IMG/VR virus record: IMGVR_UViG_3300037458_001303
Span: 8,994-72,993 of that record
Direction: 5' to 3' (one strand)
From: a virus
Taxonomy: Duplodnaviria; Caudoviricetes
Length of the DNA stretch: 64,000 nt
Position numbers and translations under genes: made by a program. Shown in pieces: positions 19,944 to 53,566 of this stretch (positions within the stretch are counted from its first letter, which is position 1; each line of letters begins with the position of its first letter). The notes under the pieces were generated by a model. That model was not told where the DNA came from. It was given only the letters and a program-made list of their open reading frames with translations, and did no database searches.

Positions 19944-20126
19944 ATGAAGACGAAGAAAACGACGAAGCGGGCGGAGAAGTCAGCGTGGCTGCTGCTCGAC
20001 GGCGACCTCCCTGTTGCTGTCACGACGATGTTGGGAGTTGCGGCACTGTGGGCGAAGTCGAAGGACAGTCGGCTGTCTGTGAGGAAACCCCTGGCGCTAA
20101 CCTCTGAGGATCTTGGTGACCTGTGA
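19944..20126 (+). CDS. Small hypothetical protein coupled to TnpB
   Basis: GTGA overlap with the TnpB start. Confidence 0.5.
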   Translation: MKTKKTTKRAEKSAWLLLDGDLPVAVTTMLGVAALWAKSKDSRLSVRKPLALTSEDLGDL

Positions 20127-21604
20127 CAACGCGTGCTTTCAAATACCGGCTGCTGCTCGACGATCACCAGGAGCGCCGCTTGCTTGATGTGCAGGCGCGC
20201 CTCCGCATGCTGTGGAACCGCGCTGTGGGCCATCTCAACCACGCCCTGTGGATGATCCAGCACGGTCGTCGGTCGAGCCTCATCGCCGAATTCCGGCGGC
20301 TCCGCGGCGACGTGAAGCCGGTTGGCGCTCGTGCAGGGCAGATCAACAAGCTGGTCGCCGCCGGCCGAACCCGCGAAGAGGCTATCAAATTGCTCGATGA
20401 GAAAACAGTCAGCGAAGCTGTGTCCATTTACCGGGCGAAGAAGACCGGGCCGCGCATGATATGGGCCGCGGCACGTCGGCTCGCTGCGGCCTACGCCGAG
20501 TTGTGGCTTACCCAAGACGCGCCGAGACAATGGTTTGATGGACTGCACGCCGACGCGTATTCGGCAATGAGTCAGCGGTTCCACGATTGCCTGGAGGCGT
20601 GGAAAAAGAATTCGAAAACGCACGGGCCGCCGAAGCGCAAGAAAATGCGGAACGGCGTAGCTCTCGGGTTTAAGGCGCGGAAGTTCTCGCTCCAGCGGGA
20701 GGGAGACCGCGTGTTTGTGGACCTGAGTCGGATCGGTGGGAGCCACCTGAGTCGCTGCCGCCTCGTGCTGCATCGCGAGCTGCCTGAGCAAGCGGAAGTG
20801 CTAAACGTTCGCGTTGCCGGGTCACGCGGCATGTGGACCGTCTCGTTCGAGCTGCGCGCTCCCGATGAGGCGTTTGCCATAACCGGCGTGCAGACCGGCG
20901 GACAGGTCGGCATCGACCCCGGGCTCAAAGCTGCCCTGACGATCGTGCGCGGTGATGATACCCATGGCAAGCATCCCGAGACGGTGACCCCGGCCTCTGA
21001 GATGCCCAACGCCAACCGGGTGCTCGCACAGCAGAAGCGATTACAGCGCCATCTGTCGCGCCAACTGAAGCTCAACAACCCTGATTGCATTGGGAAAGAT
21101 GGTGCCTGGATCAAAGGCAAGCGTGCCTCGAACATCAGCCGAGGCATGATCAAGACTCAGGCTCGATTGGCTCGGTTGTCGATGCGCGTCACGGACTTTC
21201 GGACTCAGTTTTACCATCGGGTCGCGAATCGGATCCTGGCCCAGAATGATCTGGTTGCAGTGGGGTCGTTTCGCCCGACGGATATGGCCAAGAAGAATCG
21301 CACCGGCAAAGCGGCCAAGAAGGGTTTGGGAGCGGCACGTCGTGGGCGCAATCGAAAGTCGTATCAGCACGCTATCTCGACGTTTGTCGCGATGCTGAAG
21401 GACAAGGCCCGACGCTATAACGTTGAGCGGAAGGTGGTCGACGTTGCCGAGCAAAACACAACGCGGACGTGCCCAAATTGTCTTGAAAAAAGTGGCCCGA
21501 CATCGCTTGACATCCGCTCGTGGGTGTGCGATAAGTGTGGCGCAGGGCACAACCGGGACGGCGCAGCCGCCTGGAATATCCTGCAGAAAGCTTTGACGAC
21601 GTAA
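20123..21604 (+). CDS. tnpB: CRISPR-adjacent TnpB/Cas12-like RNA-guided nuclease (IS607/Fanzor-type rearranged RuvC)
   Basis: N-terminal RAFKYRL; RuvC-I VGIDPG (D265); NNPDC...KGK insertion; RuvC-II VAVGSF (G381); VAEQNTTRTC (E443); zinc finger CPNC...CDKC; RuvC-III HNRDGAAAWNI (D479). Confidence 0.92.
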   Translation: MTTRAFKYRLLLDDHQERRLLDVQARLRMLWNRAVGHLNHALWMIQHGRRSSLIAEFRRLRGDVKPVGARAGQINKLVAAGRTREEAIKLLDEKTVSEAVSIYRAKKTGPRMIWAAARRLAAAYAELWLTQDAPRQWFDGLHADAYSAMSQRFHDCLEAWKKNSKTHGPPKRKKMRNGVALGFKARKFSLQREGDRVFVDLSRIGGSHLSRCRLVLHRELPEQAEVLNVRVAGSRGMWTVSFELRAPDEAFAITGVQTGGQVGIDPGLKAALTIVRGDDTHGKHPETVTPASEMPNANRVLAQQKRLQRHLSRQLKLNNPDCIGKDGAWIKGKRASNISRGMIKTQARLARLSMRVTDFRTQFYHRVANRILAQNDLVAVGSFRPTDMAKKNRTGKAAKKGLGAARRGRNRKSYQHAISTFVAMLKDKARRYNVERKVVDVAEQNTTRTCPNCLEKSGPTSLDIRSWVCDKCGAGHNRDGAAAWNILQKALTT

Positions 21605-21876
21605 GTCGTCGGTGGGAGCGGAAACGCATGCCGTTCCTGGGCGAAAGCCCGAATTGCGGTGGCGCTAAGCTGGCATTAGTCGGCTTGTCATCGAAGGATC
21701 CCGAGGGACCCTTGCTGTAGTGAGAGCGTAGCGGCAGTTTGCTGTCGTGAACATAATCCGGCGCAGCCGTGTGCTGCACCTTAGCGTTGGCCAAGTGGCT
21801 GGCGTAGGACAGAGATCGCTCTGGCTTCAGCGAGCCGCCCTGTAAGCGGATCCATCGCGCGTGCGCGAAGTGCGGG
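21595..21876 (+). ncRNA. Putative omegaRNA / tracrRNA-like scaffold
   Basis: Non-coding, many hairpins: GACGAC-GTAA-GTCGTC, GGGC-GAAA-GCCC, CAGAG-ATCG-CTCTG; long-range GGCGCTAAG (21661-69) pairs with CTTAGCGTT (21780-88); ends in the 3' part of the repeat. Confidence 0.7.
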
Positions 21877-22173
21877 GACAAGAAAGAGGCTCGGTGCATT
21901 GCCAACGTCGCATCTCGCGCGCGTGCGCGAAGTGCGGCGCGAGCAACTTGTGCAGTTCCTCGGGGTCGCATCTCGCGCGCGTGCGCGAAGTGCGGCGGGC
22001 GTCGGATGAAGGTCGCATCTCGCGCGCGTGCGCGAAGTGCGGCACGAAGGGAGTGAAGCATGAGTAGTGAAAACGAAGTCGCATCTCGCGCGCGTGCGCG
22101 AAGTGCGGCTCGAGACGATCGCGCACTACACCGCGGCGCAAGTCGCATCTCGCGCGCGTGCGCGAAGTGCGGC
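21845..22173 (+). CRISPR. Mini CRISPR array: five perfect 32-nt repeats plus one 5'-degenerate repeat, five spacers
   Basis: GTCGCATCTCGCGCGCGTGCGCGAAGTGCGGC at 21907, 21965, 22012, 22078, 22142; degenerate copy 21845-21876; unique spacers of 30, 26, 15, 34 and 32 nt; orientation inferred. Confidence 0.88.
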
Positions 22174-22186
22174 GCGGAGCTAGGAT

Positions 22187-22534
22187 ATGGAATTTATGAA
22201 AAAAACGAAAATCAGAGAGATGGGACGGGATTTCACGGTGGGTAAACCTCCGATGTTTTCGCCGTTGGAACGTATGTATCGCAAGGTGCGCGCTGCCACG
22301 ATCTGGCAGCTGAAGCGCTGGGCAAAGTCCTGGCCGGCCAAGGCGCGTCGCCTGGGTGAGATGCACGCCGCCTGGGTATCCATCCACGGGGACGACCGCT
22401 CGCCGTTCATTCGCCACCTGTTCGATCTCGCCGGCGCGATCGAGTCGATCCGCGACGAGGTGGCCCATCGCCAGACAGGCACGCCGAGAGCGTTTAACCC
22501 GGGAACCTATGAGCTCGGCCGCATTACCCAATAA
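22187..22534 (+). CDS. Hypothetical protein
   Basis: 115-aa ORF starting 13 nt after the last repeat. Confidence 0.6.
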   Translation: MEFMKKTKIREMGRDFTVGKPPMFSPLERMYRKVRAATIWQLKRWAKSWPAKARRLGEMHAAWVSIHGDDRSPFIRHLFDLAGAIESIRDEVAHRQTGTPRAFNPGTYELGRITQ

Positions 22535-22541
22535 CGGCGAA

Positions 22542-22700
22542 GTGCGCCGGTGGCTGGCCCTCTACCATAACCCCTACAACGAGGTGTATGTGGGCCGGTC
22601 TCGGCGCCTGAACTACTATCCGATTTATCTTGAGTTCGACCCGAAACGCGGATACAAACCACATCATGAAAAGCAAGCTGAAGCACGCACTGATCAGTAA
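22542..22700 (+). CDS. Small hypothetical protein
   Basis: GTG start; fills the gap before the dNMP kinase. Confidence 0.3.
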   Translation: MRRWLALYHNPYNEVYVGRSRRLNYYPIYLEFDPKRGYKPHHEKQAEARTDQ

Positions 22701-23466
22701 AGGTGTCATCGGTTTCACGGGATCGGCCTGTGCTGGCAAGGACTACCTCGCCGGCCTGTTGGGCGCCCGGACCGAGGGAATGGCCGAGCCACTTTACTGG
22801 ATGACGGACTGCCTATTCGGCCTCACGTCGGAGGATCGTGGCGTCGTTGGGCTGCGCGAGACGTGGCAGACCCTGGGGCAGTGGGGTAAGGGCACGGTCA
22901 ACGACCGCTATCCCATCACGCCGGCCCGCGGTGTCTTCTGCGAGTTTGTCCGTAGCTACTTCGAGTCGCGGGACGAGGACTACGAAGCGAAGCACGACCG
23001 CCCGCTCTGCGTTGACTGGCCCTCCTACGGGTTCCAGGAGGGAATCTGGATCGACTCCATGGTGGACCGCATCGACCACCGCCTATTGACCAAGAAGGAC
23101 CGGCTGATCGCCGTCACTGGACTGCGGTTCCCGATCGAGATCGAGGCGTTCGCCGAGAAGGGGTGGCCGGTGCTGCACGTCATGGCCAGTCCGATCACGC
23201 TTGGCCGGCGCCAAGCGACACAAAACATCACCGACGAGGCCCGGCGTGACGTGTCCGAGGGGCTGGCCCACCGTCTGAACAGTATCCTGTGGGACGCGGC
23301 TAGCCCGACTACCCCGGTGCCGGACATCCCGGATCTGCTTGAGATGAATGACATCCGGGGAGTCTGGGGGGCAGTCTGGAACGATCCTGAAGCCCCCTGC
23401 AGGAATGAAGAGTTCTTGACACCGGCGGAGCTTTTGGGTATGTTGCCGCCGATGATAAAAGACTGA
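22666..23466 (+). CDS. Deoxynucleoside monophosphate kinase-like protein
   Basis: VIGFTGSACAGKD P-loop, RETWQTLG, GIWID, VTGLRFPIE. Confidence 0.8.
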   Translation: MKSKLKHALISKGVIGFTGSACAGKDYLAGLLGARTEGMAEPLYWMTDCLFGLTSEDRGVVGLRETWQTLGQWGKGTVNDRYPITPARGVFCEFVRSYFESRDEDYEAKHDRPLCVDWPSYGFQEGIWIDSMVDRIDHRLLTKKDRLIAVTGLRFPIEIEAFAEKGWPVLHVMASPITLGRRQATQNITDEARRDVSEGLAHRLNSILWDAASPTTPVPDIPDLLEMNDIRGVWGAVWNDPEAPCRNEEFLTPAELLGMLPPMIKD

Positions 23467-23467
23467 T

Positions 23468-24109
23468 ATGTGTTTTCCAAGAGGACATTTCATGACGGCA
23501 TCGGGGCGGGCGGTGAACCCGTTCACGATGGAACCCAAGGACGTGCTACTGAGCGACATTGGCCGTGCCTTGAGCAACACGTGCCGGTGGGGCGGGCACC
23601 TGCCCCCTGGCGTTTGGATCTCGGTCGCCCAGCATTCGGTGTGGGTCAAAGAGTTGCTCGAATACATCGGGGTCGAAGACGAGAGCATCATCAGCCAGGG
23701 GCTGCTGCATGACGCGTCTGAGGCGTATGTTGGTGACATGGTCAGCCCGTTCAAAGAGCAGGTCGCGATTTACAACGAAGTCGAGCACAAGGTGCAGTCG
23801 ACCATCGCCAAGGCTTTCGGGATTCCCCACCCGTGGGACCCGATCGTCCATTGGGCGGATAAGGCCGTGATGGTGGTGCTGGAGTCGGAGCGCGCCGGCA
23901 AGAACCCGGCTGAGGAGGTCTTCAGCGGCTACCTTGAAAATGCGTTGACCGCCGAGGTTTGGCGAAAACGCTTTTACCCTGGCGGCATTATCGACTACCT
24001 GCAGGAGTTGAACACGCTGTGGACGCCCGGCGAGGCCTACGCCAATTTCATGCGGGCAGCCCGGACCCAGAAATTGATCGAGAAAGCTGACCGAAGCGGC
24101 GGTCAATGA
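23468..24109 (+). CDS. HD-domain 5'-deoxynucleotidase (YfbR-like)
   Basis: SVAQHSV, LLHDASEAYVGDMVSPFK, WAD. Confidence 0.85.
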   Translation: MCFPRGHFMTASGRAVNPFTMEPKDVLLSDIGRALSNTCRWGGHLPPGVWISVAQHSVWVKELLEYIGVEDESIISQGLLHDASEAYVGDMVSPFKEQVAIYNEVEHKVQSTIAKAFGIPHPWDPIVHWADKAVMVVLESERAGKNPAEEVFSGYLENALTAEVWRKRFYPGGIIDYLQELNTLWTPGEAYANFMRAARTQKLIEKADRSGGQ

Positions 24110-45400: not shown

Positions 45401-45524
45401 CTTCGTTCTCCTCTTCGTCTTCCTCGCCGACGCCGAACAGTTCCTTCGCGCCTTCGACGAATAGTTTCATCTCTTCCTCGGTCAGCCCGAGGTCTTCCAA
45501 TGTGATGTCTCGATCCGTGATCAT
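45387..45524 (-). CDS. Small acidic protein (45 aa)
   Basis: MITDRDITLEDLGLTEEEMKLF...; ATGA overlap with the giant gene; missing from the ORF track. Confidence 0.5.
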   Translation of the reverse strand: MITDRDITLEDLGLTEEEMKLFVEGAKELFGVGEEDEEENEDGTE

Positions 45525-48500
45525 TGCAGGTTCAACTCAACTTGACCTTCGAGCTCGCCCAGCCGACGGAGCTTGTTCTCCAGGTTGGCTTCCACGAGCG
45601 ACTTGAGCCCGAAGGCTTCGACTGGGGCCCTGGCGATGGACGGCGGAACGGTGAAACCCTCCGCCTGTTCTTCAGTGAGGTCGAGACCGGCCAGATCTTT
45701 CCCGGGCTCCGGCTGGATGACGAGCTCGCCCTCCGGGGTCCGACGCAGTGCCTCCATGAATTCGACGAAGCTGGCGAGCTTGGCACCGGTTTTCTCAGTC
45801 CATCCGCTTTGGTCCCACAGCTTTTTCTCTCCGAACCAAACGATAGCTTGCAGATCTGCCGGCTCCATGCCAAGATCCTTCGCAGCCTGCCGAAAACCAT
45901 CCGCAATGACGTCGTAAGCCACATCATCCACTCCCGTTTCGTTCCGCGCCAGAATGCGCCATTGCTCTTTCCCACGATTGAGCAAACGGTGCGCGATGCG
46001 CGCGGCCCACACATCAATAGTCGGCCCCCAGTCGGCGCCCGTCAAGTTTCCCGTGAATTGCTTGGTCTTTTTGCCACCCGACCCATCGTCCCAAGCATCA
46101 CCCAGCACCAAAGCAACCGAAGTGCTGTTGGCCCCGAATAGTTTCCCGTTGCTTTTTCGCGGCTTCAGGCCTTCCCGATTGATCAGCCAGGACAGGAACG
46201 ATCGCTGCAGATCGCCGCCTTCCTTCTGACTCCCGCTTTTGACGTCGTTGTAGAAGGCTGTCATGATTTCGGGGTCTTTCGCCTCGAACTTTTCCCAGCC
46301 TTCGTTGATCCGGTTGACGATGTCCTTGTAGTCGCCTTTCTTGAACCGATTGTAAGCGTCCAGCGCCATCAAGAAGTTCTCGCGGACTCCGGTTCGAGGC
46401 GAAGTCGCCGCCAGAAGCTGCGCGAACATGACCATGTCCTCGCCAAAAATGCTCTTCCCGAGCTTGGCCGCCAGCCGATACCACTTTCGGGCCAGGGCAA
46501 CCCTGGGGTTCTCCATCATCTTGCGCCCCTCTTCCGCTAGACGCTCCCCGAGGACTTTACTGACCTGCGTCCGGACTTCCATCGCGGCCTCCCGCGCGCC
46601 CAGATCTTTCGGCAGCGAGTTGGCGACTTCGTTGCCTACGACTGAGTCCGTGATCTGATACGGCAGCTTGGCATAAACCAGATTGCCCTTCTCATCCTGC
46701 TGCGGGACGTTGTTTTCATCCCGAGAGAACTGGACCGGCATTGACTCCGGGAATTGCTTCGCGGCTGCCTCGATCTCTTCCTTAGCCGCGCGTCGCTTTG
46801 CTGCGATGCTAGCGTTTTTTGGCAGGAACAACCCGCCCATGCCACGCTTCCGAAGGTTATCAAGCGAGTCGGAGAACACTTGGAACTTGTTGTCCTCCTG
46901 GCTCAGGTTGGCCCGCATGAAGTCGAGCACCTTAGGCGTCTTCGGTTTGGTGTCTACGAGCGAGACCTGGGCATTGTCGACCCAGTCCTCGTTGTCCAGG
47001 AAAATCCCCTCCACCTTGCCGCGGACGGCAGGCCACTTGCTATCGGGGATCTCGATGTGCAACCGGCCCTGGTTGGGCTCGTAACGAATCCGGACGAACC
47101 CGGCCTTGAGCGCTTTTTCGCGCTCGGCCACGTCCGGACGGTCAGTAAACTTGGTCCCGAACCGCTTGTTGTAATCAGCCGAGTTCTCGGCCAGATCGTT
47201 CTCGTGGAGACCCGACGTCACCTTCTTGACCGACCCATCCGGTAGAATCCACCCTGCGCGGTCGCCCTTCAGCCCGGCGAAGTCGAGATCTTTCTTGCGC
47301 CGTGGAGCGAACGCCGGTTGGGTCGCCGGCTGCGTCATGCGCTCAACGCCGATTGCGGCCAGATCAAGGGGCGCCTCGGCCGTTCCCTCGGGGGTCGTCC
47401 AGGGCATCGTCGGCTGCGCCTGTTCTTTCAGGATCCGGTTGACCTCGGCCTCCGGGAGAACCCGGTTGATCTTCATTGATCCGCCGATCATCCAGTCACC
47501 GGTCATGTTGGGGTTGGTCTTGTATCGGTAGTAGCCGTCCTCCGGGATCTTCGCAAGATCCGCGCGAGTCGGACTGAAAACGCCACGAGCATTAACTCCC
47601 GCCGCGTTAGCCTCAGGCTGGTAGTCCACGTCGGCAGCCAGTTCCACTTCGGCCCAGACTTCGTTAGGCCGGCGCGCCCAAACTTTGCCGTCCTTCTTGA
47701 TGCCGATGTGGGTCGCCAGAGGCAGATCCCCGGCGTGCCATCCCGGGCGGAACTTGAGCGGCCCGAGCTTCGAGCGGACTTTTCCACCTTCTGCCGAAGG
47801 GCCCGCCGTCGCGTCAAGCCATAGCCCGCGGGGCAACGGATCCGTCGCACCAACGAAAAGTGGGTATAGCTTACCGTCCCGGACTCGGAAGAGCTTGTAG
47901 GCCTTGACCGTCTTCTCGGGGGCGTCCTTGGTCCGGACCCGGTATCCGCCTCCAGCGGGATCCGACATGACGTCGCCCTGGGTCGGGAACACGTCAGCGT
48001 CGGGAAGCGCATCGGACCGTTTCCGCGGCAGGAAATTCAAGCCTTCGGGGCCCATGCCCTCCTGCGCGACGTCCTCTGACTGCAGCGACTGCATCTCCTG
48101 CGAGTTGGTCGCGTCGGCCTTCAGCTGATTGGCCCTCTCTGCAATCTCGAAAGCCTCGGTGCGGGTCACATACCGGCCCGTGCTGGTCACAAACCCGTTG
48201 TCGACATAGGTGTCCGGGAAGTGACGCAGGATATCCTGGGGACCCCAGTTGTTTTCCTTGATCGCGGTCATCAGCGCCGCGAAGTGCATCGGGCCGGTCC
48301 AGACCCGTCCGTCCAGACGAGAGCGGATGGCGGCCATCTTGATCGTCTCGACGTCAGTCCGGTCAGCGGGCAGGAACGCGGTGCGGTCCTCGTCGTAGGG
48401 ACGCAGCTTCTCGACCGTAGCGTCGTCGGCACCCTGCTCCTTCGCCCATTCGGTTACCGGCTTCTCCACGGCGGGAGGCGGCGTTGTCTCCGGGGCGGGA

Positions 48501-51500
48501 ACCGGCAGCGTTTCAGGTTCTCCCGCGGACCTCCGCATTTGCCTCATAAACCACGAGGCACCGCTCTTCGCCATATTGATCTGACCAACTGCCGGGCGCG
48601 GTCCAGGGAATTCCCGGCCACGGAAATATCGGGACCGATACCGGGGCAACGCGGCGCCTTGGGCCGGAAACGTGGGCATCCGCCCATTCACAAGAGCGTC
48701 CGCTGCGGCTCTCATCTGGGCCGGGTCGGTGAGCACGGTCTCTCCACTGCCACCCGTCGGGACGACGTCACTTGCCACCGAGTCCCAGATTGCCTGCTGG
48801 TTGTTCCGCTGCGCGAAAGCTACTGAATTGGCCCGGTGCTTCTGATTGACGACCGCGTTGACGTCGATCGATACCATCGCTTCGCCACGTGGGCCCTTGG
48901 CCTCAATCTTGAAGAGCCCCGGTTTTACCCGGTAGTTGCTCAACGCATCCGTGTAGGGCTGAAGCGCGGATCGGACTCTCTCGACCGTCAACTCATTGGC
49001 GGGCACGTTGACCGAGGCAAGCGTTACCACATCCGTCGGTTCTTGCCGGGTGACCCCGGGGTTATCCGGATCGACCTCCCGAAGACGAGCCGGGTCGAAC
49101 AATGTCCCGTCCGCGTTGAGCGTTCCACCAAATTCTTCGCCGCTTCGGATCTTGTCGATGAGCTGGACGGCGTTCTTGTGGATCATCAGCAACGAGGGGT
49201 CCAGCAAACCGATCTGGGTGCTGAATCCAGCCATGCTGCCGGAATCTTCCATCACCTCACGCGCCTCGCGGAAGAACTGGCCCTTCATCATGACCGCCAG
49301 CGCTTGGTCCATGCGCCCGGCCGCCATGTCGGCTTCGAACTGCCGATTCACCTGATCGCGGAGAGCGTTGGCAAGCGGAATGCCCATCTCCGTATCGCCG
49401 GCGAGCGAGATGCCAACCGCGTAAGCCTGCCCAGTCAGCCCGCCAGGGCCCTTGGCCAGCGCCGCAAACTGCTCGGGAGTCATCGTCGCGACGTCACGCA
49501 AGCGTTGGATCGCGTCCGCGCGCGGCAGGAACCCCGCCGTCGCCAGCGGTGTGCTGATTTCCCGGATCGGCGTTTCGCGCACCCCGATTCCTTCCGGCGG
49601 CGTGACGATGTCTTCGAGGTTAAGCGCCTCGATCGCCTCCGTCAGGTTGTCCTTGGCGTTGTAACCCTGCCGGGACAGCTCAGTCCGGATCGGGTTCATC
49701 TCCATGATGTCGAAGCGTTGGTTCCCGAGCTCCGGCACAACGAACTGTGGGCGCGGGCCGCCCACCTGAGGCACCACGCTGGGCAGCCCCCGGGCTTTCG
49801 CCTCGGCCTTGGAGAACCGAATGCCTTCCGCCGGCACCGGGGTCAGATTGTTCTCGGTGGCCAGGATCTGCGCCTCGACGTTCCCGGGGATCGTGATGCG
49901 TTCCCCGGTAACCGGGTTGACGCCAGCAGGCTGACGCTTGGTCGTGGTTGGCGGCGCGATCCCCATGAGCAGGTTCAGCATCGTCGCCGTCGTCGCCGGC
50001 AGCTGATTCGGGCTGAACCCGGGTGTCGGCTGCGGGACATACCGTTGGTAGCCTTCCGGCACTCGAATCGGCTGCCCTTGGCCCGTAAAACCATTGGCGT
50101 GGTTCTGCGAGTAGGCCGCCAGATCGCTGGCCATGGCGTTTAACCCGTCCGTCGTAAACCGGAGCCCTTCGGGTGTCTGGATATACTCCCACGCCGCGGG
50201 AATCAGGTCGGCGATCTGCCGGACACCCGGCTTGTCCGACGCCATCAGGTCGTTCAACAGGATCGTGGCGTTGCCCAGGACCTTGTCCGGGCTCAGACCG
50301 AGCACCTGGATGCGCGGGGCGCCTCCAGGCTGAGTCGAACGGAGCATGCGGAACCGGTAGGGGATCGTGTTCTTCTGGAAGATCGCCCTGGTGGACTCCT
50401 TGATGTTGGGGTCCGCGGAGAGCTGTTCCCTGTAGTAGGCCTCGGCTTGGTCGTTCCGGCGTTGCCACCGTCGCAGGGCATCCTTGCCGGCCGACGGCTT
50501 CACTGACTGATAGAAGAGCGATACCAGGGGACCGCCGCGGTCCATTCCGAGGGTCCGGATGGCCCCGGCGATGCGCCGGAGGTTCTCAACCTGGGCTTGG
50601 TCGATGTCGGGGTTCTGCTCGACGGCCTGGAGGATCTTCTCCACGTCGTTCAGGTCCCGGACGTCCCGGGCTGCCGTCCGAGCGAATTCACCGGCGCCCA
50701 TACCACCCCGGAGGTTCTCCGGCTCTTCCCCGGCAGCTACCGGGGGAGTCTGGACACCGGGCACGGTCATCGCGCGCGGCGTAATGGGCGCCGGCGGCGT
50801 TACCGTGGGGGTGACTTGGGACAATGGAGCCCCCGCGGGCGTAGGAGTTTCACCAGGAGCCGGAATCGGTGCTGGCGCGGTTGGTCCGCCGGTCGGGGGC
50901 AAAGGAGGGGGCTGCGCTGGGCCGCTAGGGGGGCTAGAAGGCGTCGGGGGTAGCGGGGGCGGTGTCGGGGCCGCCGCGGCCGCAGGAAGCGGTGGCGGGG
51001 TCGCCGCTGGCGAAGGCGCCATGGTCCCGGCGGTCTGGAGGACGCGGAAAGAAGGCTCAATCGGGAGCGTCCCGGGCACGGCAGAGGCCATTTCGGCCAC
51101 CTCGGGACGGAATCCGGGGATTACCGCCTGGAAAAAGCGTCCAACAAGCCCCGCGATAGGCTGGACGACCCCCGGAGGGAGCCCGTCAAGCCGGGATCCA
51201 CGGGATACTAGGGAAAAATGTTCCGCAGCAATCTCGCCGAGGGCCTGTTCCCGCGAGATAGACACCGGGGTCGCCCCTTCGGGGAGGTTGGCGTTGAGCA
51301 TCCGCTCGTAAAGCGACCGGAAGGCCTCAATCTTATCGGGCCCGTAAGCCTTCTCGATGTCCCGCTGCAGCTGGATTGACTGTTCCGGGGTGGTCAGAGC
51401 GTGCATGAGGTGCCCCAGCTCGTGGTGCATCCCCGTGGTGTCTTCGGACAGGTAAATCTCGTAGCTGCCGTCGGGCGCCGTCCCGGCGAAATAGCCATGG

Positions 51501-53566
51501 GCGTCCGCACCGAAACGGTTTTGGAAGGCGTCCCTGGGCATCAGCCAGATCTTGGTCTCGACGGACCGGCCCGTGTTGGGGTCCTGGACCCGCCGGTAAT
51601 GCTCTCGCATCCTGGCGATCAGTGCGGCGGCCTTTTGGCCCACCGGATTCGTTGCCATCCGCCTGACGGCGGCCTCATGCCCGGCGTTGAGGTTCTTGAT
51701 GTCAGTAGCACGCTCCCCGGTCTCAGCGTAGGGCGCTGAAGGGACCCCCTGGACGTCCGCCTGTTTCCAGGCTTGGTGCAGCCCGGTAAGTGCCGAGTCG
51801 CGTCCATACTGGAATGCCTCCGACCCCAAAGCACCGTAGGCACCCAGAGCGCCCGAAGAGATGATGCCGGCGGCCATTTCCGGGTCGTCGGCCAGAAGCG
51901 CCAACGGAACCGCACCGGCCGTGCCGTGGACAACGCCTCGGCTGCCGGTAGCAATGCGGCGTCGGATCCATTCCAGGCCGCCCTCACCCCTAGCAAACTT
52001 GGCTCCGCTCTTGGCCATCTTTTCGCCCATTGCCTTCACGCCCCGACTACCCAGCGCCAGTGCCGTGCCGATCAGAAGGCTGGCTGGATTGCCAGACATA
52101 ACGGCAGCGGTCAGACCGGTCGCCATGGCGATGCCGGCGACTTTCGATCCCATGAACTTGCCCAGCCCGGCGATTTCCTTCCCCGCTTTCTCCAGGGGTG
52201 CCGCCACGGCAGCACGACCCGCTCTGCCGACCGCCTCCACCGTGCCGCGTCCCGCGGCCGATATGGCACGTCCGATCCTCGACTTGGCCGCTTCCAACGC
52301 TGCGGCGTCCGCTGCCTGGGCGATCGTTCGACCCGTCCGGGTGTTGACCAGCTTGAAACCCTTCGCGCCGGCGCCTACGGGAATCGCATTCGAAATGTCG
52401 GTGAAGATCGAGACGTTGTCGATCTCTTCCGGATCAAGCTTGACGCCGATCTGCTGCAGCTCTTCCTCGTTCAGTCCACCGAGCGCTTCGGTGACAACGC
52501 CCTGGCCGGAGCGCGCCCGATCATACTCGTAGTAGCGGCCCATCCGGTTAATGAATTCTTCAGCCGGATCCCGCGGGTCAAGCTTCTCGATACCAGCCTG
52601 GACGAACCGCTCTGCGGGTCCCCGCAGTAGCGAATTCATAAAGCTGGCGACACGCATCCCGCGGCGGAGCGTTTCTCCGACGCCTCGCTGCGTAGCTTCA
52701 AGCGCACTGCCGCCGGTCGCGGCCGTCGCTGCCGCCTCCGCGACACCACCGACGATCGGGACTGCGTTCATGAGCAGGCCACCCGATTCAACACCGCCGA
52801 GCTCGATAGAGGCCAGCAACGTCTGAGCTGCGCGAGCTTTCTCCTCGTCCGTGCTGCCGGGGAGCGCTGCGTAAAGGTTCGCACCGAGCTGCCCCGCCCC
52901 CTTGAGAGCGGAACCGAACATTCCGGGCATGCCCGAAACGCCGGCGCGGAGGACCTGACGGATCGCCTCGGAAGTCAGGCCACGGGCGTCCTTCTCTTTC
53001 CGAATCCGGAGCATCCGGTCGAAGGTCGCTTGGTCGTAAGCTCGATTCTCGATCCAGAACTTCGCCATCTCCTTTTCGGGGACGAAGAGCGCATCGTTGA
53101 TCAGATCGTCGTCGGTCCGGTCTTCCCACTCGGCCAGCGGGGACCAGTTGGTGTCGTTGGTGACAGGAGCAGCCGCTTCAGGCTGCGCGGGAACGCCCGG
53201 TTCGTCGACAGGCTCCCAGCCGGAGGTGTCAGTGACGACCATCCCCGGTTCCGGTGTGAAGGCGGGAGGCGATTCGAGGATCGAGGGCGAAGAAAGAGTC
53301 TGAGGTGGGGCACCTACGGGCCCGTTTGATTGCGGAAGCATGGCTTCAGCACCCGCCACCTCAGAAAGGGGAGCCGCCGGTTCCGGTTTTCGAACGCCGA
53401 AAACGTTGGCGACAGAGGGATGGAGTTGGCTTTGAAACGCAGAAAGAGCGGGAGCAAAAACGGAGGCATTGCTAGCGCTCAGTCTCTTGAGCCGCTCCGA
53501 AGGGAGATCCTGCACATTCAGGGGCATAAGCTTACTATCGTGACCGAGTTGATACCCGTCAACCAA
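45521..53566 (-). CDS. Large internal virion (ejection) / polyvalent protein, 2681 aa
   Basis: Last of three ejection-like genes; Gly/Ala-rich hydrophobic segments, HHELGH motif, Pro-rich linker, KAYKLF...RPGWH module, C-terminal HhH-glycosylase-like module. Confidence 0.75.
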   Translation of the reverse strand: MVDGYQLGHDSKLMPLNVQDLPSERLKRLSASNASVFAPALSAFQSQLHPSVANVFGVRKPEPAAPLSEVAGAEAMLPQSNGPVGAPPQTLSSPSILESPPAFTPEPGMVVTDTSGWEPVDEPGVPAQPEAAAPVTNDTNWSPLAEWEDRTDDDLINDALFVPEKEMAKFWIENRAYDQATFDRMLRIRKEKDARGLTSEAIRQVLRAGVSGMPGMFGSALKGAGQLGANLYAALPGSTDEEKARAAQTLLASIELGGVESGGLLMNAVPIVGGVAEAAATAATGGSALEATQRGVGETLRRGMRVASFMNSLLRGPAERFVQAGIEKLDPRDPAEEFINRMGRYYEYDRARSGQGVVTEALGGLNEEELQQIGVKLDPEEIDNVSIFTDISNAIPVGAGAKGFKLVNTRTGRTIAQAADAAALEAAKSRIGRAISAAGRGTVEAVGRAGRAAVAAPLEKAGKEIAGLGKFMGSKVAGIAMATGLTAAVMSGNPASLLIGTALALGSRGVKAMGEKMAKSGAKFARGEGGLEWIRRRIATGSRGVVHGTAGAVPLALLADDPEMAAGIISSGALGAYGALGSEAFQYGRDSALTGLHQAWKQADVQGVPSAPYAETGERATDIKNLNAGHEAAVRRMATNPVGQKAAALIARMREHYRRVQDPNTGRSVETKIWLMPRDAFQNRFGADAHGYFAGTAPDGSYEIYLSEDTTGMHHELGHLMHALTTPEQSIQLQRDIEKAYGPDKIEAFRSLYERMLNANLPEGATPVSISREQALGEIAAEHFSLVSRGSRLDGLPPGVVQPIAGLVGRFFQAVIPGFRPEVAEMASAVPGTLPIEPSFRVLQTAGTMAPSPAATPPPLPAAAAAPTPPPLPPTPSSPPSGPAQPPPLPPTGGPTAPAPIPAPGETPTPAGAPLSQVTPTVTPPAPITPRAMTVPGVQTPPVAAGEEPENLRGGMGAGEFARTAARDVRDLNDVEKILQAVEQNPDIDQAQVENLRRIAGAIRTLGMDRGGPLVSLFYQSVKPSAGKDALRRWQRRNDQAEAYYREQLSADPNIKESTRAIFQKNTIPYRFRMLRSTQPGGAPRIQVLGLSPDKVLGNATILLNDLMASDKPGVRQIADLIPAAWEYIQTPEGLRFTTDGLNAMASDLAAYSQNHANGFTGQGQPIRVPEGYQRYVPQPTPGFSPNQLPATTATMLNLLMGIAPPTTTKRQPAGVNPVTGERITIPGNVEAQILATENNLTPVPAEGIRFSKAEAKARGLPSVVPQVGGPRPQFVVPELGNQRFDIMEMNPIRTELSRQGYNAKDNLTEAIEALNLEDIVTPPEGIGVRETPIREISTPLATAGFLPRADAIQRLRDVATMTPEQFAALAKGPGGLTGQAYAVGISLAGDTEMGIPLANALRDQVNRQFEADMAAGRMDQALAVMMKGQFFREAREVMEDSGSMAGFSTQIGLLDPSLLMIHKNAVQLIDKIRSGEEFGGTLNADGTLFDPARLREVDPDNPGVTRQEPTDVVTLASVNVPANELTVERVRSALQPYTDALSNYRVKPGLFKIEAKGPRGEAMVSIDVNAVVNQKHRANSVAFAQRNNQQAIWDSVASDVVPTGGSGETVLTDPAQMRAAADALVNGRMPTFPAQGAALPRYRSRYFRGREFPGPRPAVGQINMAKSGASWFMRQMRRSAGEPETLPVPAPETTPPPAVEKPVTEWAKEQGADDATVEKLRPYDEDRTAFLPADRTDVETIKMAAIRSRLDGRVWTGPMHFAALMTAIKENNWGPQDILRHFPDTYVDNGFVTSTGRYVTRTEAFEIAERANQLKADATNSQEMQSLQSEDVAQEGMGPEGLNFLPRKRSDALPDADVFPTQGDVMSDPAGGGYRVRTKDAPEKTVKAYKLFRVRDGKLYPLFVGATDPLPRGLWLDATAGPSAEGGKVRSKLGPLKFRPGWHAGDLPLATHIGIKKDGKVWARRPNEVWAEVELAADVDYQPEANAAGVNARGVFSPTRADLAKIPEDGYYRYKTNPNMTGDWMIGGSMKINRVLPEAEVNRILKEQAQPTMPWTTPEGTAEAPLDLAAIGVERMTQPATQPAFAPRRKKDLDFAGLKGDRAGWILPDGSVKKVTSGLHENDLAENSADYNKRFGTKFTDRPDVAEREKALKAGFVRIRYEPNQGRLHIEIPDSKWPAVRGKVEGIFLDNEDWVDNAQVSLVDTKPKTPKVLDFMRANLSQEDNKFQVFSDSLDNLRKRGMGGLFLPKNASIAAKRRAAKEEIEAAAKQFPESMPVQFSRDENNVPQQDEKGNLVYAKLPYQITDSVVGNEVANSLPKDLGAREAAMEVRTQVSKVLGERLAEEGRKMMENPRVALARKWYRLAAKLGKSIFGEDMVMFAQLLAATSPRTGVRENFLMALDAYNRFKKGDYKDIVNRINEGWEKFEAKDPEIMTAFYNDVKSGSQKEGGDLQRSFLSWLINREGLKPRKSNGKLFGANSTSVALVLGDAWDDGSGGKKTKQFTGNLTGADWGPTIDVWAARIAHRLLNRGKEQWRILARNETGVDDVAYDVIADGFRQAAKDLGMEPADLQAIVWFGEKKLWDQSGWTEKTGAKLASFVEFMEALRRTPEGELVIQPEPGKDLAGLDLTEEQAEGFTVPPSIARAPVEAFGLKSLVEANLENKLRRLGELEGQVELNLQ

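What the first reader, a model, noticed from the sequence alone, without database searches (positions are those of the whole stretch)
20900..21604. RuvC site is the rearranged Fanzor/IS607 type
Seen: RuvC-I is D265-P-G; the canonical RuvC-II Glu is replaced by Gly (VAVG381SF); E443 lies seven residues before the first zinc-finger Cys (VAEQNTTRTC); D479 is intact; an NNPDC...KGK insertion is present. Known: this DPG / G / relocated-E arrangement marks Fanzors and their IS607-type TnpB relatives. Inferred: the enzyme is probably active despite looking dead at RuvC-II, and the array was acquired in a Fanzor-related lineage rather than in classical Cas12f lineages.
Basis: partly seen in the sequence, partly recalled or inferred. 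Interest (0 to 1): 0.75.

Follow-up and report, generated by a model that had tools for sequence, protein, structure and literature searches.

The report
Phage CRISPR nuclease with relocated glutamate
A phage carries a small RNA-guided DNA-cutting enzyme, with its own mini CRISPR array, whose catalytic glutamate sits at the alternative position so far described for eukaryotic Fanzors and some transposon TnpBs, so the enzyme is probably active rather than dead.

Summary
ORF 20123-21604 (+) encodes 493 aa with D265-P-G, Gly381 at the canonical RuvC-II Glu position, E443 seven residues before the first zinc-finger Cys, D479, and the NNPDC...KGK segment at 318-333.

It is not chance. G381 and E443 are invariant in 50 relatives. 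Across 152 homologues, Gly at RuvC-II pairs with Glu at the alternative site, and Glu at RuvC-II pairs with a non-acidic residue there.

A family profile aligns D265/E443/D479 with D324/E467/D501 of mimivirus Fanzor2, the triad seen by cryo-EM; E467A abolishes cleavage. An active nuclease is therefore the best reading. I could not measure distances, because model coordinates are not exposed.

The protein belongs to a clade of about 45 clusters. In all 8 distinct loci with enough downstream DNA (phages, Verrucomicrobiota MAGs) a CRISPR array follows the gene. None has cas1 or tnpA nearby.

The evolutionary claim is only partly supported. The sister clade is also Glu-relocated, and its one visible locus has no array. 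Whether this lineage shares its rearrangement with Fanzor and pro-Fanzor is unresolved (AU tests). The NNPDC segment is not a Fanzor mark.

The scan has met this family before on other DNA (e1-5819875, e1-5808994, e1-5297068).

The parts
20123..21604 (+). Gene for the 493-aa TnpB/Cas12-like effector (GTG start; stop at 21602-21604)
   Evidence: ORF list. Pfam Cas12f1-like_TNB scores 56.9 bits against a cut-off of 26.3, with weaker OrfB_IS605 and HTH_OrfB_IS605 hits. AF2 model pLDDT 91.9. VIA-align Z 23.1 to ISDra2 TnpB.
20915..20923 (+). RuvC-I motif D265-P266-G267 (catalytic Asp)
   Evidence: At least 90% conserved in 50 relatives. Aligns with GIDPGLR (D324) of ApmFz2.
21074..21121 (+). NNPDC...IKGK segment (residues 318-333), inserted relative to ISDra2 TnpB
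   Evidence: a 21-residue gap in ISDra2 and Cas12n. N319, P320 and G332 are invariant in the close family. Also present in canonical-Glu TnpBs, including IS607-borne ones, and absent from Fanzor2 and short relocated-Glu TnpBs.
21263..21265 (+). Gly381 at the canonical RuvC-II (beta-4) glutamate position
   Evidence: Aligned to the catalytic Glu of LaTranC and ISDra2 TnpB. Invariant Gly in 50 relatives. Lies at the end of predicted strand 377-382.
21449..21451 (+). Glu443, the relocated (alternative) catalytic glutamate, directly after predicted strand 437-442
   Evidence: Invariant in 50 relatives. Aligns with E467 of ApmFz2, which is a cryo-EM triad member and is essential for cleavage (PMC11832414, PMC10530073).
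21470..21538 (+). C4 zinc finger (C450, C453, C469, C472)
   Evidence: At least 90% conserved. Covered by the Pfam TNB domain at 420-486.
21557..21559 (+). RuvC-III Asp479 (R478-D479)
   Evidence: Aligns with D501 of ApmFz2.
21605..21843 (+). Structured non-coding stretch between gene and array; candidate guide-RNA scaffold / tracrRNA region (inferred)
   Evidence: MFE -106.5 kcal/mol, z = -2.07 against shuffles. No Rfam family. No significant anti-repeat. In relatives this distance is filled by a poorly conserved C-terminal tail of the ORF that runs up to the array.
21844..22173 (+). Mini CRISPR array: a degenerate first repeat (3' 20 nt conserved) plus five 32-nt repeats beginning GTCGCATCTC and ending GAAGTGCGGC; spacers of 30, 26, 15, 34 and 32 nt
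   Evidence: Homologous repeat ends (GTCGC... and ...GTGCGGC or ...GGGGAC) occur in arrays behind relatives.

Best explanation
The gene at 20123-21604 encodes a compact, phage-borne type V CRISPR effector (TnpB-derived, Cas12/TranC-like). It is most likely an active RNA-guided DNA endonuclease.

Its RuvC site would be built from D265 (beta-1, DPG motif), E443 (directly after beta-5, seven residues before the zinc finger) and D479 (RuvC-III). Gly381 fills the usual beta-4 glutamate position and so leaves room for the relocated carboxylate.

Guides come from the adjacent six-repeat array at 21844-22173, probably together with a scaffold RNA encoded at 21605-21843. The phage would use the system against competing DNA.

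By analogy with Fanzors and TnpB2, the relocated glutamate probably gives target cleavage with little or no collateral single-strand DNase activity.

Shown here: the residues, their family-wide conservation and coupling, their one-to-one alignment with a validated triad, the TnpB fold, and the consistent array association.

Inferred: the three-dimensional convergence of the three residues, cleavage itself, the RNA components, the targets, and the lack of collateral activity.
For: - Residues are confirmed.
- G381 and E443 are invariant, and D265/P266/G267/D479 at least 90% conserved, in 50 relatives.
- RuvC-II and the alternative site are coupled in reciprocal fashion across 152 homologues.
- The family profile aligns GiDPG, vaiGdw, vnEanTTrtCsaCg and hdRD with ApmFz2 GIDPG (D324), ICIGKL, VNEYLTTKTCSNCG (E467) and ADRD (D501). 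That triad is seen in the 9B0L cryo-EM structure (PMC11832414). D324A and E467A abolish cleavage, and the relocated-Glu TvTnpB is also active (PMC10530073).
- The AF2 model has pLDDT 91.9 and places E443 right after strand 437-442 and G381 at the end of strand 377-382. This is the beta-5 versus beta-4 swap described for RIIr-5 TnpBs (PMC10691335).
- The fold matches ISDra2 TnpB at Z 23.1 and ApmFz2 at Z 16.9.
- The query lies in a clade with 99% SH-aLRT support. Its members are followed by CRISPR arrays in all 8 distinct loci with at least 300 nt downstream: the window, L002, L038, L040, L041, L042/L197, L043/L044 and L046/L198.
Against: - No coordinates are exposed, so the distances between E443, D265 and D479 were not measured.
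- There are no biochemical data for any member of this clade.
- A few clade members have lost an Asp (P0018 and P0027 have Lys at RuvC-III; P0024, P0042 and P0045 have Asn at RuvC-I), so nuclease-dead offshoots exist in the family.
- The window's spacers are irregular (15-34 nt) and have no match in this phage, in IMG/VR (one spacer, exact match only) or in GenBank phages.
- No clear anti-repeat lies upstream of the array.
Confidence: 0.75

Rival explanations
1. The enzyme is a nuclease-dead, RNA-guided DNA binder or repressor (like TldR, Cas12m or Cas12k). Loss of the RuvC-II glutamate inactivates it, and the array provides several binding guides.
For: - Gly replaces the canonical Glu.
- One spacer is only 15 nt, a length that in other systems supports binding rather than cutting (general knowledge).
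- Some relatives have lost a catalytic Asp.
Against: - E443 is invariant in 50 relatives and aligns with the essential E467 of ApmFz2 (PMC10530073).
- D265 and D479 are intact and conserved.
- Strict Gly/Glu coupling across 152 homologues is what compensation predicts, not decay.
Confidence: 0.12
2. The relocated glutamate of this CRISPR-linked clade arose independently of the Fanzor / pro-Fanzor / TnpB2 lineage, from canonical TnpBs that carry the NNPDC segment. On this view the likeness to Fanzor is convergent. This rivals the reader's evolutionary inference, not the mechanism.
For: - The NNPDC...IKGKR segment is shared nearly verbatim with canonical-Glu TnpBs (P0067, P0072, P0099, P0110, P0071, P0080, P0117, L051, L056, L200). 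It is absent from short relocated-Glu TnpBs and from giant-virus Fanzor2.
- ISDra2 TnpB is closer than ApmFz2 by fold and by profile score.
- PMC10691335 reports RuvC-II rearrangements in two major clades and eight large branches, so the change has recurred.
- A tree that constrains this clade together with the NNPDC canonical TnpBs is not rejected (AU 0.40).
Against: - The constraint 'all relocated-Glu proteins one clade' gave the best likelihood found (-65402.6; AU 0.70) with the trait columns removed.
- NNPDC-bearing canonical TnpBs are scattered over the tree, so the segment may be ancestral and often lost.
- DPG is shared with ApmFz2.
Confidence: 0.4
3. The array is not this protein's own. 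It is either a decaying remnant or a mimic of a host array (its 32-nt repeat starts GTCGC like type I-C repeats) used with host Cas proteins.
For:
- Spacer lengths are irregular, and the phage has no cas1.
Against: - Relatives at 27-36% identity carry arrays in the same place and orientation. Their repeats share the GTCGC start and a G-rich 3' end. L002, with about 32% protein identity, even shares ...GTGCGGC.
- That co-inheritance ties the array to the effector.
Confidence: 0.05

Closest known systems
Fanzor2 of Acanthamoeba polyphaga mimivirus (ApmFz2 / ApmFNuc, PDB 9B0L)
   Same: The RuvC layout is the same: G-I-D-P-G at RuvC-I, Gly at the canonical Glu position, Glu six residues ahead of CxxC, and R-D at RuvC-III. 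The residues align one to one. Glu to Asp spacing is 36 here and 34 in ApmFz2. It is a single-chain TnpB-type fold (Z 16.9).
   Different: ApmFz2 is a giant-virus protein in an IS607-like element guided by a single omega-RNA, with no CRISPR array. It lacks the NNPDC segment and has an N-terminal extension. In trees giant-virus Fanzor2s sit on a very long branch whose attachment is unresolved.
Prokaryotic relocated-Glu TnpBs: TnpB2 (e.g. Thermoplasma volcanium TvTnpB), RIIr-5 of Altae-Tran et al. 2023, and 'pro-Fanzor' IS607 TnpBs of Yoon et al. 2023
   Same: Gly at RuvC-II together with the alternative Glu. The query meets every element of the published DPG+Ealt regular expression except one spacing. 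These proteins have been shown to be active nucleases without collateral activity (PMC10530073).
   Different: They are mobile, about 350-450 aa, and omega-RNA guided. The short relocated-Glu TnpBs in my sample are mostly D-L-G and lack the NNPDC segment. The query has 175 residues between G267 and E443, outside the 120-160 of the published pattern (PMC10711439), so that screen would miss it. It has no TnpA and a CRISPR array instead.
ISDra2 TnpB (PDB 8EXA/8H1J/8BF8)
   Same: It is the closest solved fold (Z 23.1, rmsd 3.4 A over 324 residues) and the best natural sequence-profile match (153 bits). Domain order is the same: WED, REC, RuvC, zinc finger.
   Different: ISDra2 has the canonical Glu (E271-type, IIGTEHL), D-V-G at RuvC-I, no NNPDC segment, a smaller REC, an IS200/605 context and a single omega-RNA.
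Cas12n (type V-N; RdCas12n, PDB 9J09)
   Same: It is the only solved CRISPR effector that the family profile aligns over its full length (positions 5-490, E 3e-42). Size is similar, an array follows the gene, and relatives have a disordered C-terminal tail overlapping the RNA-coding region.
   Different: Cas12n keeps the canonical Glu (GFEDLNV) and D-L-G, and lacks the NNPDC segment in the alignment.
TranC, transposon-CRISPR intermediates (LaTranC, PDB 9JFO/9JFQ; Jin et al., Cell 2025, not held here)
   Same: Concept: a TnpB-sized protein with a short CRISPR array and no adaptation genes. LaTranC is the best single-sequence PDB hit (E 1e-10). TranC clades are said to derive from IS605 or IS607 TnpBs (PMC13565253). 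Repeats of 32-36 nt and arrays of 3-20 repeats are reported for TranC clades (10.64898/2026.03.27.714800).
   Different: LaTranC has the canonical Glu (LLAVETL). I could not check whether this clade is one of the numbered TranC clades.
Cas12f (type V-F)
   Same: A miniature effector with the Pfam Cas12f1-like TNB domain and a related fold (Z about 17).
   Different: Cas12f has the canonical RuvC-II Glu in the solved structures that aligned, and works as an asymmetric dimer (published). The sequence-profile match is weak (E 1e-17 to 5e-4). It was not included in my trees.

Membership tests
TnpB/Cas12 superfamily | RuvC (RNase H-like) nuclease domain split into three motifs, with a zinc-finger/TNB insert | tested here: met
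   Pfam PF07282 scores 56.9 bits against a cut-off of 26.3. VIA-align Z 23.1 to ISDra2 TnpB over residues 1-493.
Relocated-Glu ('Ealt', TnpB2, RIIr) class | Non-acidic residue at the canonical RuvC-II Glu position, and a Glu six residues upstream of the first CxxC | tested here: met
   G381 lies opposite the Glu of ISDra2 and LaTranC. The protein reads E443-x6-C450. Both residues are invariant in 50 relatives.
DPG+Ealt 'Fanzor fingerprint' (Yoon et al. 2023 regular expression) | DPG at RuvC-I | tested here: met
   D265-P266-G267.
DPG+Ealt 'Fanzor fingerprint' (Yoon et al. 2023 regular expression) | 120-160 residues between DPG and the alternative Glu; then CxxC-x(12,18)-CxxC-x(4,8)-D | tested here: not met
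   There are 175 residues between G267 and E443. The rest fits: 15 residues between the two CxxC motifs and 6 before D479 (pattern quoted in PMC10711439).
Fanzor (Fanzor1/2) | Encoded in a eukaryote or a virus of eukaryotes | tested here: not met
   The record is a 73-kb IMG/VR phage genome with PHROG DNA polymerase, helicase and exonuclease. Cellular relatives are found only in Verrucomicrobiota MAGs.
Fanzor / pro-Fanzor lineage | Phylogenetic placement inside or next to Fanzor2 and pro-Fanzor TnpBs | tested here: inconclusive
   Trees with trait columns removed leave the deep order unresolved. AU tests keep all three hypotheses. No verified cyanobacterial pro-Fanzor sequence was available for the tree.
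IS607 TnpB | Adjacent serine-recombinase TnpA, or a non-autonomous multi-copy element | tested here: not met
   PF00239 is absent from the whole genome. The gene is single copy. No TnpA homologue occurs in any locus of the clade by tblastn with an IS607 TnpA.
IS200/IS605 TnpB | Adjacent Y1 (HUH) TnpA | tested here: not met
   PF01797 is absent from the genome.
Type V CRISPR-Cas effector (Cas12 in the broad sense) | RuvC-only effector encoded next to a CRISPR array, with the association conserved among relatives | tested here: met
   An array lies 240 nt downstream. Arrays follow the gene in all 8 distinct family loci with enough downstream DNA.
Type V CRISPR-Cas effector (Cas12 in the broad sense) | crRNA-guided target cleavage | not testable with these tools
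   Needs expression, small-RNA sequencing and a PAM/cleavage assay.
TldR / nuclease-dead TnpB derivatives | Loss of the catalytic triad without a compensating residue | tested here: not met
   A compensating Glu443 is present and invariant, and D265 and D479 are intact.
TranC (transposon-CRISPR intermediates) | Membership of a named TranC clade; use of both crRNA and reRNA-type guides | not tested
   The defining paper (Cell 2025, doi 10.1016/j.cell.2025.09.004) is not held. Use of the RNAs cannot be tested here.

The most novel reading that the evidence does not exclude
This protein represents a sizeable clade of CRISPR-array-associated effectors, carried by phages and Verrucomicrobiota, that all use the Fanzor-type D / relocated-E / D RuvC site. 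The clade holds about 45 clusters at 50% identity among the best 150 hits. If so, the relocated-glutamate site is not confined to transposon TnpBs and Fanzors 'separate from the Cas12 family' (PMC11832414). It has also been recruited for CRISPR function, possibly giving compact effectors that lack collateral cleavage by nature. The clade may not yet be described as such: a published regular-expression screen would miss it because of the longer DPG-to-Glu spacing.
Probability: 0.5. Interest if true: 0.7.

Novelty: new variant of a known kind. Interest (0 to 1): 0.6.

Why it matters
Two published statements are touched:
- The DPG plus relocated-Glu combination is called the molecular fingerprint of Fanzors, found in under 1% of TnpB homologues (PMC10711439).
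- The rearranged site is said to mark a branch separate from the Cas12 CRISPR nucleases (PMC11832414).

Here the same site sits in an effector whose whole clade carries CRISPR arrays. Either the Fanzor-type lineage also gave rise to a CRISPR system, or the rearrangement evolved more than once; both outcomes inform how plastic the RuvC site is.

In practice, relocated-Glu enzymes tested so far lack collateral ssDNA cleavage (PMC10530073). Moving the Glu back switches trans-cleavage on in Fanzor2 (bioRxiv 10.64898/2026.06.23.733943, abstract). A 493-aa crRNA-guided enzyme of this type would therefore be a natural test case and a candidate compact editor.

It also settles a disagreement between first readers, one of whom read Gly381 as inactivation.

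Tried and rejected
Single-protein and two-protein queries found no close relative in IMG/VR. tblastn against GenBank phages gave only distant TnpBs of at most 28% identity.
- treekit's AU test under the PMSF mixture model did not finish in three calls, and a full IQ-TREE search timed out. I fell back on LG+F+G4 with short searches, which is weaker against long-branch artefacts.
- Row L054 in the last tree had a 10-unit branch, probably a mistranslated or truncated ORF, and is disregarded.
- Spacers: no self-match in the 73-kb genome, no exact IMG/VR match for spacer 4, and nothing significant in GenBank phages.
- Anti-repeat search: nothing above shuffled controls in the window. The strong values for the window are the degenerate first repeat pairing with its own palindromic core.
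- Rfam found no family at 20000-23000.
- The supplement of PMC10691335 (V-U6 to V-U45, RIIr branches) is not held, nor is the TranC paper. I could therefore not check whether this clade already has a name.
- Cas12p ('Cas12 hacker'), a phage-encoded mini Cas12 and second-best Foldseek hit, was considered and set aside. Its triad D378/E478/D582 is canonical.
Full report
OBSERVATION

The ORF at 20123-21604 (+) encodes 493 residues.
- D265 in GIDPGLK.
- G381 in LVAVGSFRP.
- E443 in VAEQNTTRTC, seven positions before C450.
- The C4 zinc finger, C450/C453/C469/C472.
- D479 in NRDG.
- NNPDC (318-322) and KGK (331-333).

Pfam identifies a Cas12f1-like TNB domain above its cut-off, with weaker OrfB_IS605 and HTH_OrfB_IS605 matches. 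HMMER alignments to solved structures place G381 opposite the catalytic glutamate of LaTranC and ISDra2 TnpB. The canonical RuvC-II glutamate is therefore really missing.

IS IT MORE THAN CHANCE?

An exhaustive HMMER search of 1.84 billion representatives found 1595 homologues, 44 of them at E below 1e-30. Aligning the best 152 shows a reciprocal pattern:
- Sequences with Gly at the RuvC-II column have Glu at the column of E443, mostly with D-P-G at RuvC-I.
- Sequences with Glu at RuvC-II have Pro, Ala, Arg or Gln at that column, mostly with D-[VLI]-G.

The 117 sequences that are at least 330 aa long and gap-free at the four catalytic columns were classed as 67 of the first kind, 47 of the second, one with both and two with neither. 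In a 50-sequence alignment of the family, G381 and E443 are invariant. D265, P266, G267, D479 and the four cysteines are at least 90% conserved. This is what compensation predicts, not decay.

STRUCTURE AND HOMOLOGY TO A VALIDATED SITE

An AlphaFold2 model built on that alignment has mean pLDDT 91.9 and pTM 0.82. G381 ends strand 377-382, E443 follows strand 437-442 directly, and D479 starts the last helix. This is the beta-4 to beta-5 shift described for RIIr-5 TnpBs and compared with RuvX (PMC10691335).

The family profile aligns with mimivirus Fanzor2 (9B0L) so that D265, G381, E443 and D479 fall on GIDPG (D324), ICIGKL, VNEYLTTKTCSNCG (E467) and ADRD (D501). In the cryo-EM structure D324/E467/D501 form the triad around Mg2+ (PMC11832414). 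D324A and E467A abolish cleavage, and a prokaryotic relocated-Glu TnpB (TvTnpB) is active (PMC10530073).

Model coordinates are not exposed to me.

By overall fold the nearest solved structures are as follows (Foldseek agrees):
- ISDra2 TnpB: Z 23.1.
- ISFba1 TnpB: Z 21.4.
- Cas12f: about Z 17.
- ApmFz2: Z 16.9.
- LaTranC: Z 16.2.

WHAT THE LOCUS IS

The window is part of a 72,993-bp IMG/VR virus record rated 100% complete. It carries phage DNA polymerase, helicase and exonuclease genes. The gene is single copy. The genome holds no serine recombinase, no Y1 transposase and no Cas1.

A 239-nt structured spacer region follows the gene (z = -2.07). After it lies a small array: a degenerate first repeat whose 3' 20 nt match the consensus, then five 32-nt repeats, with spacers of 30, 26, 15, 34 and 32 nt. 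The spacers match nothing in this phage or in the collections I could search.

THE FAMILY IS CRISPR-LINKED

Loci encoding relatives were fetched from IMG/VR, JGI metagenomes and GTDB genomes. Every distinct locus of the clade with at least 300 nt downstream has an array in the same position and orientation:
- L002, a 190-kb phage: 3 repeats.
- L038: 6 repeats.
- L040: about 7 repeats.
- L041: 13 repeats.
- L042/L197: 12 repeats.
- L043/L044: 5 repeats.
- L046/L198: 7 to 14 repeats.

The repeats are usually 36 nt, start GTCGC and end G-rich; spacing is 69-75 nt. L037 and L045 have under 200 nt downstream and say nothing. No cas1/2/4 or tnpA lies nearby where flanks are readable: L043 sits among chromosomal genes for a type III polyketide synthase and a phosphofructokinase.

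Among 185,579 species genomes, the only carriers are two Verrucomicrobiota MAGs. The array therefore belongs to the effector, and the system is a stand-alone type V-like CRISPR module. The resemblance of the repeat's start to type I-C repeats, noted by another reader, is explained by family-wide repeat homology rather than by mimicry.

EVOLUTIONARY PLACEMENT

I removed the trait columns (265-267, 381, 443) before building trees. FastTree on 131 sequences and IQ-TREE (LG+C20 PMSF) on 84 sequences agree on the following:
- The query lies in a clade of CRISPR-linked proteins (99% SH-aLRT).
- Its sister is a second relocated-Glu/DPG clade of 511-716-aa proteins, here called EaltB (98%).
- Short relocated-Glu TnpBs of about 350 aa, mostly D-L-G, form their own clade.
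- Giant-virus Fanzor2 homologues form a clade on a very long branch. I fetched them with the ApmFz2 C-terminal peptide printed.
- The order among these groups and several canonical-Glu clades is unresolved.

Under LG+F+G4, forcing all relocated-Glu proteins into one clade gave the best likelihood found (AU 0.70). The free tree (AU 0.53) and a tree joining the query's clade with canonical NNPDC-bearing TnpBs (AU 0.40) are not rejected either. In the constrained tree the query's clade plus EaltB is sister to short relocated-Glu TnpBs plus Fanzor2, not nested within them.

The one EaltB locus I could read (L270, a phage contig with DnaB) has neither array nor TnpA. The array was therefore probably gained after the split, in a lineage that already had the relocated glutamate. 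This rests on a single locus.

THE NNPDC SEGMENT

It is conserved in the family: N319, P320 and G332 are invariant. It is missing in ISDra2 TnpB and Cas12n. But it is not a Fanzor mark:
- Giant-virus Fanzor2s and short relocated-Glu TnpBs lack it.
- EaltB has a shortened form.
- Canonical-Glu TnpBs carry it almost verbatim. Three of these sit directly behind a serine-recombinase TnpA, that is, in IS607 elements (L051, L056, L200).

In a tree built without trait and insertion columns these carriers are scattered. The segment therefore looks old and repeatedly lost. It gives a weak, indirect link to IS607-type TnpBs and does not discriminate between the two evolutionary scenarios.

COMPARISON WITH WHAT IS KNOWN

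The relocated glutamate is well described. See TnpB2 and Fanzors (PMC10530073), RIIr branches (PMC10691335), DPG+Ealt as the 'fingerprint of Fanzors' restricted to Fanzors and cyanobacterial IS607 pro-Fanzors (PMC10711439), and the cryo-EM triad (PMC11832414).

The query meets the published pattern except that 175 residues, not 120-160, separate DPG from the glutamate, so that screen would have skipped it. [quoted passage not shown] The clade found here is CRISPR-linked, which qualifies that statement.

On the other hand, PMC10691335 mentions altered RuvC-II motifs in 'TnpB (or Cas12)' and lists 40 unnamed V-U branches. The TranC work (Cell 2025, known to me only through citing papers) reports many TnpB-sized CRISPR-linked clades derived from IS605 or IS607 TnpBs. 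I could read neither supplement, so the clade may already be catalogued without its active site having been discussed. I found no paper in the held library that describes a CRISPR-linked clade with this site.

Earlier follow-ups of this scan reached the same reading on other DNA of the same family: e1-5819875, the 190-kb phage that is my L002; e1-5808994; and e1-5297068. I treat these as leads, not as support.

VERDICT

The mechanistic inference, an active nuclease with a D265/E443/D479 triad, is well supported by conservation, coupling and homology to a validated site, though not by measured geometry or any assay. I put it at about 0.75 against 0.12 for a dead binder.

The evolutionary inference is partly supported. 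The array arose in a relocated-Glu lineage, but specific kinship with Fanzor or pro-Fanzor, and an IS607 origin, remain open. The finding is a new variant of a known kind: a CRISPR effector clade with the Fanzor-type RuvC site.

Noticed in passing
window 21877-22141: Spacer lengths are irregular (30, 26, 15, 34, 32 nt), whereas arrays behind relatives have regular spacers of about 34-36 nt. Spacer 4 contains GGGAG followed 7 nt later by ATG, like a translation start. No target was found.
   Followed up: partly
window 21844-21876: The first 'repeat' keeps only the 3' 20 nt of the consensus and follows the structured 21605-21843 region directly. The scaffold, half-repeat and 30-nt spacer therefore read like a built-in single guide RNA ahead of the array (a TnpB-to-CRISPR intermediate layout). 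No significant anti-repeat was found upstream.
   Followed up: partly
L038:1254-1318; L042:1746-1810; L043:5111-5175: In relatives a plus-strand stretch complementary to the repeat lies 115-265 nt upstream of the array and overlaps the 3' end of the effector ORF (duplex -44 to -46 kcal/mol against -31 to -36 for shuffles). This is a likely tracrRNA anti-repeat. Many relatives have a poorly conserved C-terminal tail of about 100 aa that runs right up to the array.
   Followed up: partly
L019-L030 (IMG/VR phage contigs): A different phage-borne family of 533-611-aa TnpB/Cas12-like proteins has D-P-G at RuvC-I but the canonical RuvC-II Glu. Each is followed immediately after the stop codon by an array of up to 28 repeats. 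So DPG alone does not mark the relocated-Glu class.
   Followed up: partly
Proteins P0018, P0027, P0024, P0042, P0045 (family members): Some members of the CRISPR-linked clade have lost a catalytic Asp (Lys at RuvC-III, or Asn at RuvC-I) while keeping the relocated Glu. These may be nuclease-dead offshoots.
   Followed up: no
L117, L118, L123, L128 (giant-virus contigs, IMG/VR): Fanzor2 homologues of giant viruses, one on a 1.26-Mb contig, have D-L-G rather than D-P-G at RuvC-I while keeping Gly plus the relocated Glu. L129 has D-P-G. DPG is therefore not universal among viral Fanzor2s.
   Followed up: no
L051:2-382, L056:660-1154, L200:3932-4495: These are IS607-type elements: a serine-recombinase TnpA (Resolvase domain, E 6e-19 in L200) lies directly upstream of a canonical-Glu TnpB that carries the same QRKxDRQRRANNPDCYD segment as the query's family. 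L200 comes from a Thermoleophilaceae MAG.
   Followed up: partly
L197, L198 (Verrucomicrobiota MAGs); L042-L044: Near-identical effector loci carry arrays with the same repeat but different numbers of units (12 against 5). This suggests spacer turnover without a local adaptation module. The likely host range of the window's phage may include Verrucomicrobiota (window GC is about 60%).
   Followed up: no
window 45521-53566 (-): A single 2681-aa ORF, the largest in the phage. It was not examined.
   Followed up: no
window 23468-24109 (+): A 213-aa ORF with weak, sub-threshold HD-domain / YfbR-like 5'-deoxynucleotidase matches lies two genes downstream of the array.
   Followed up: no
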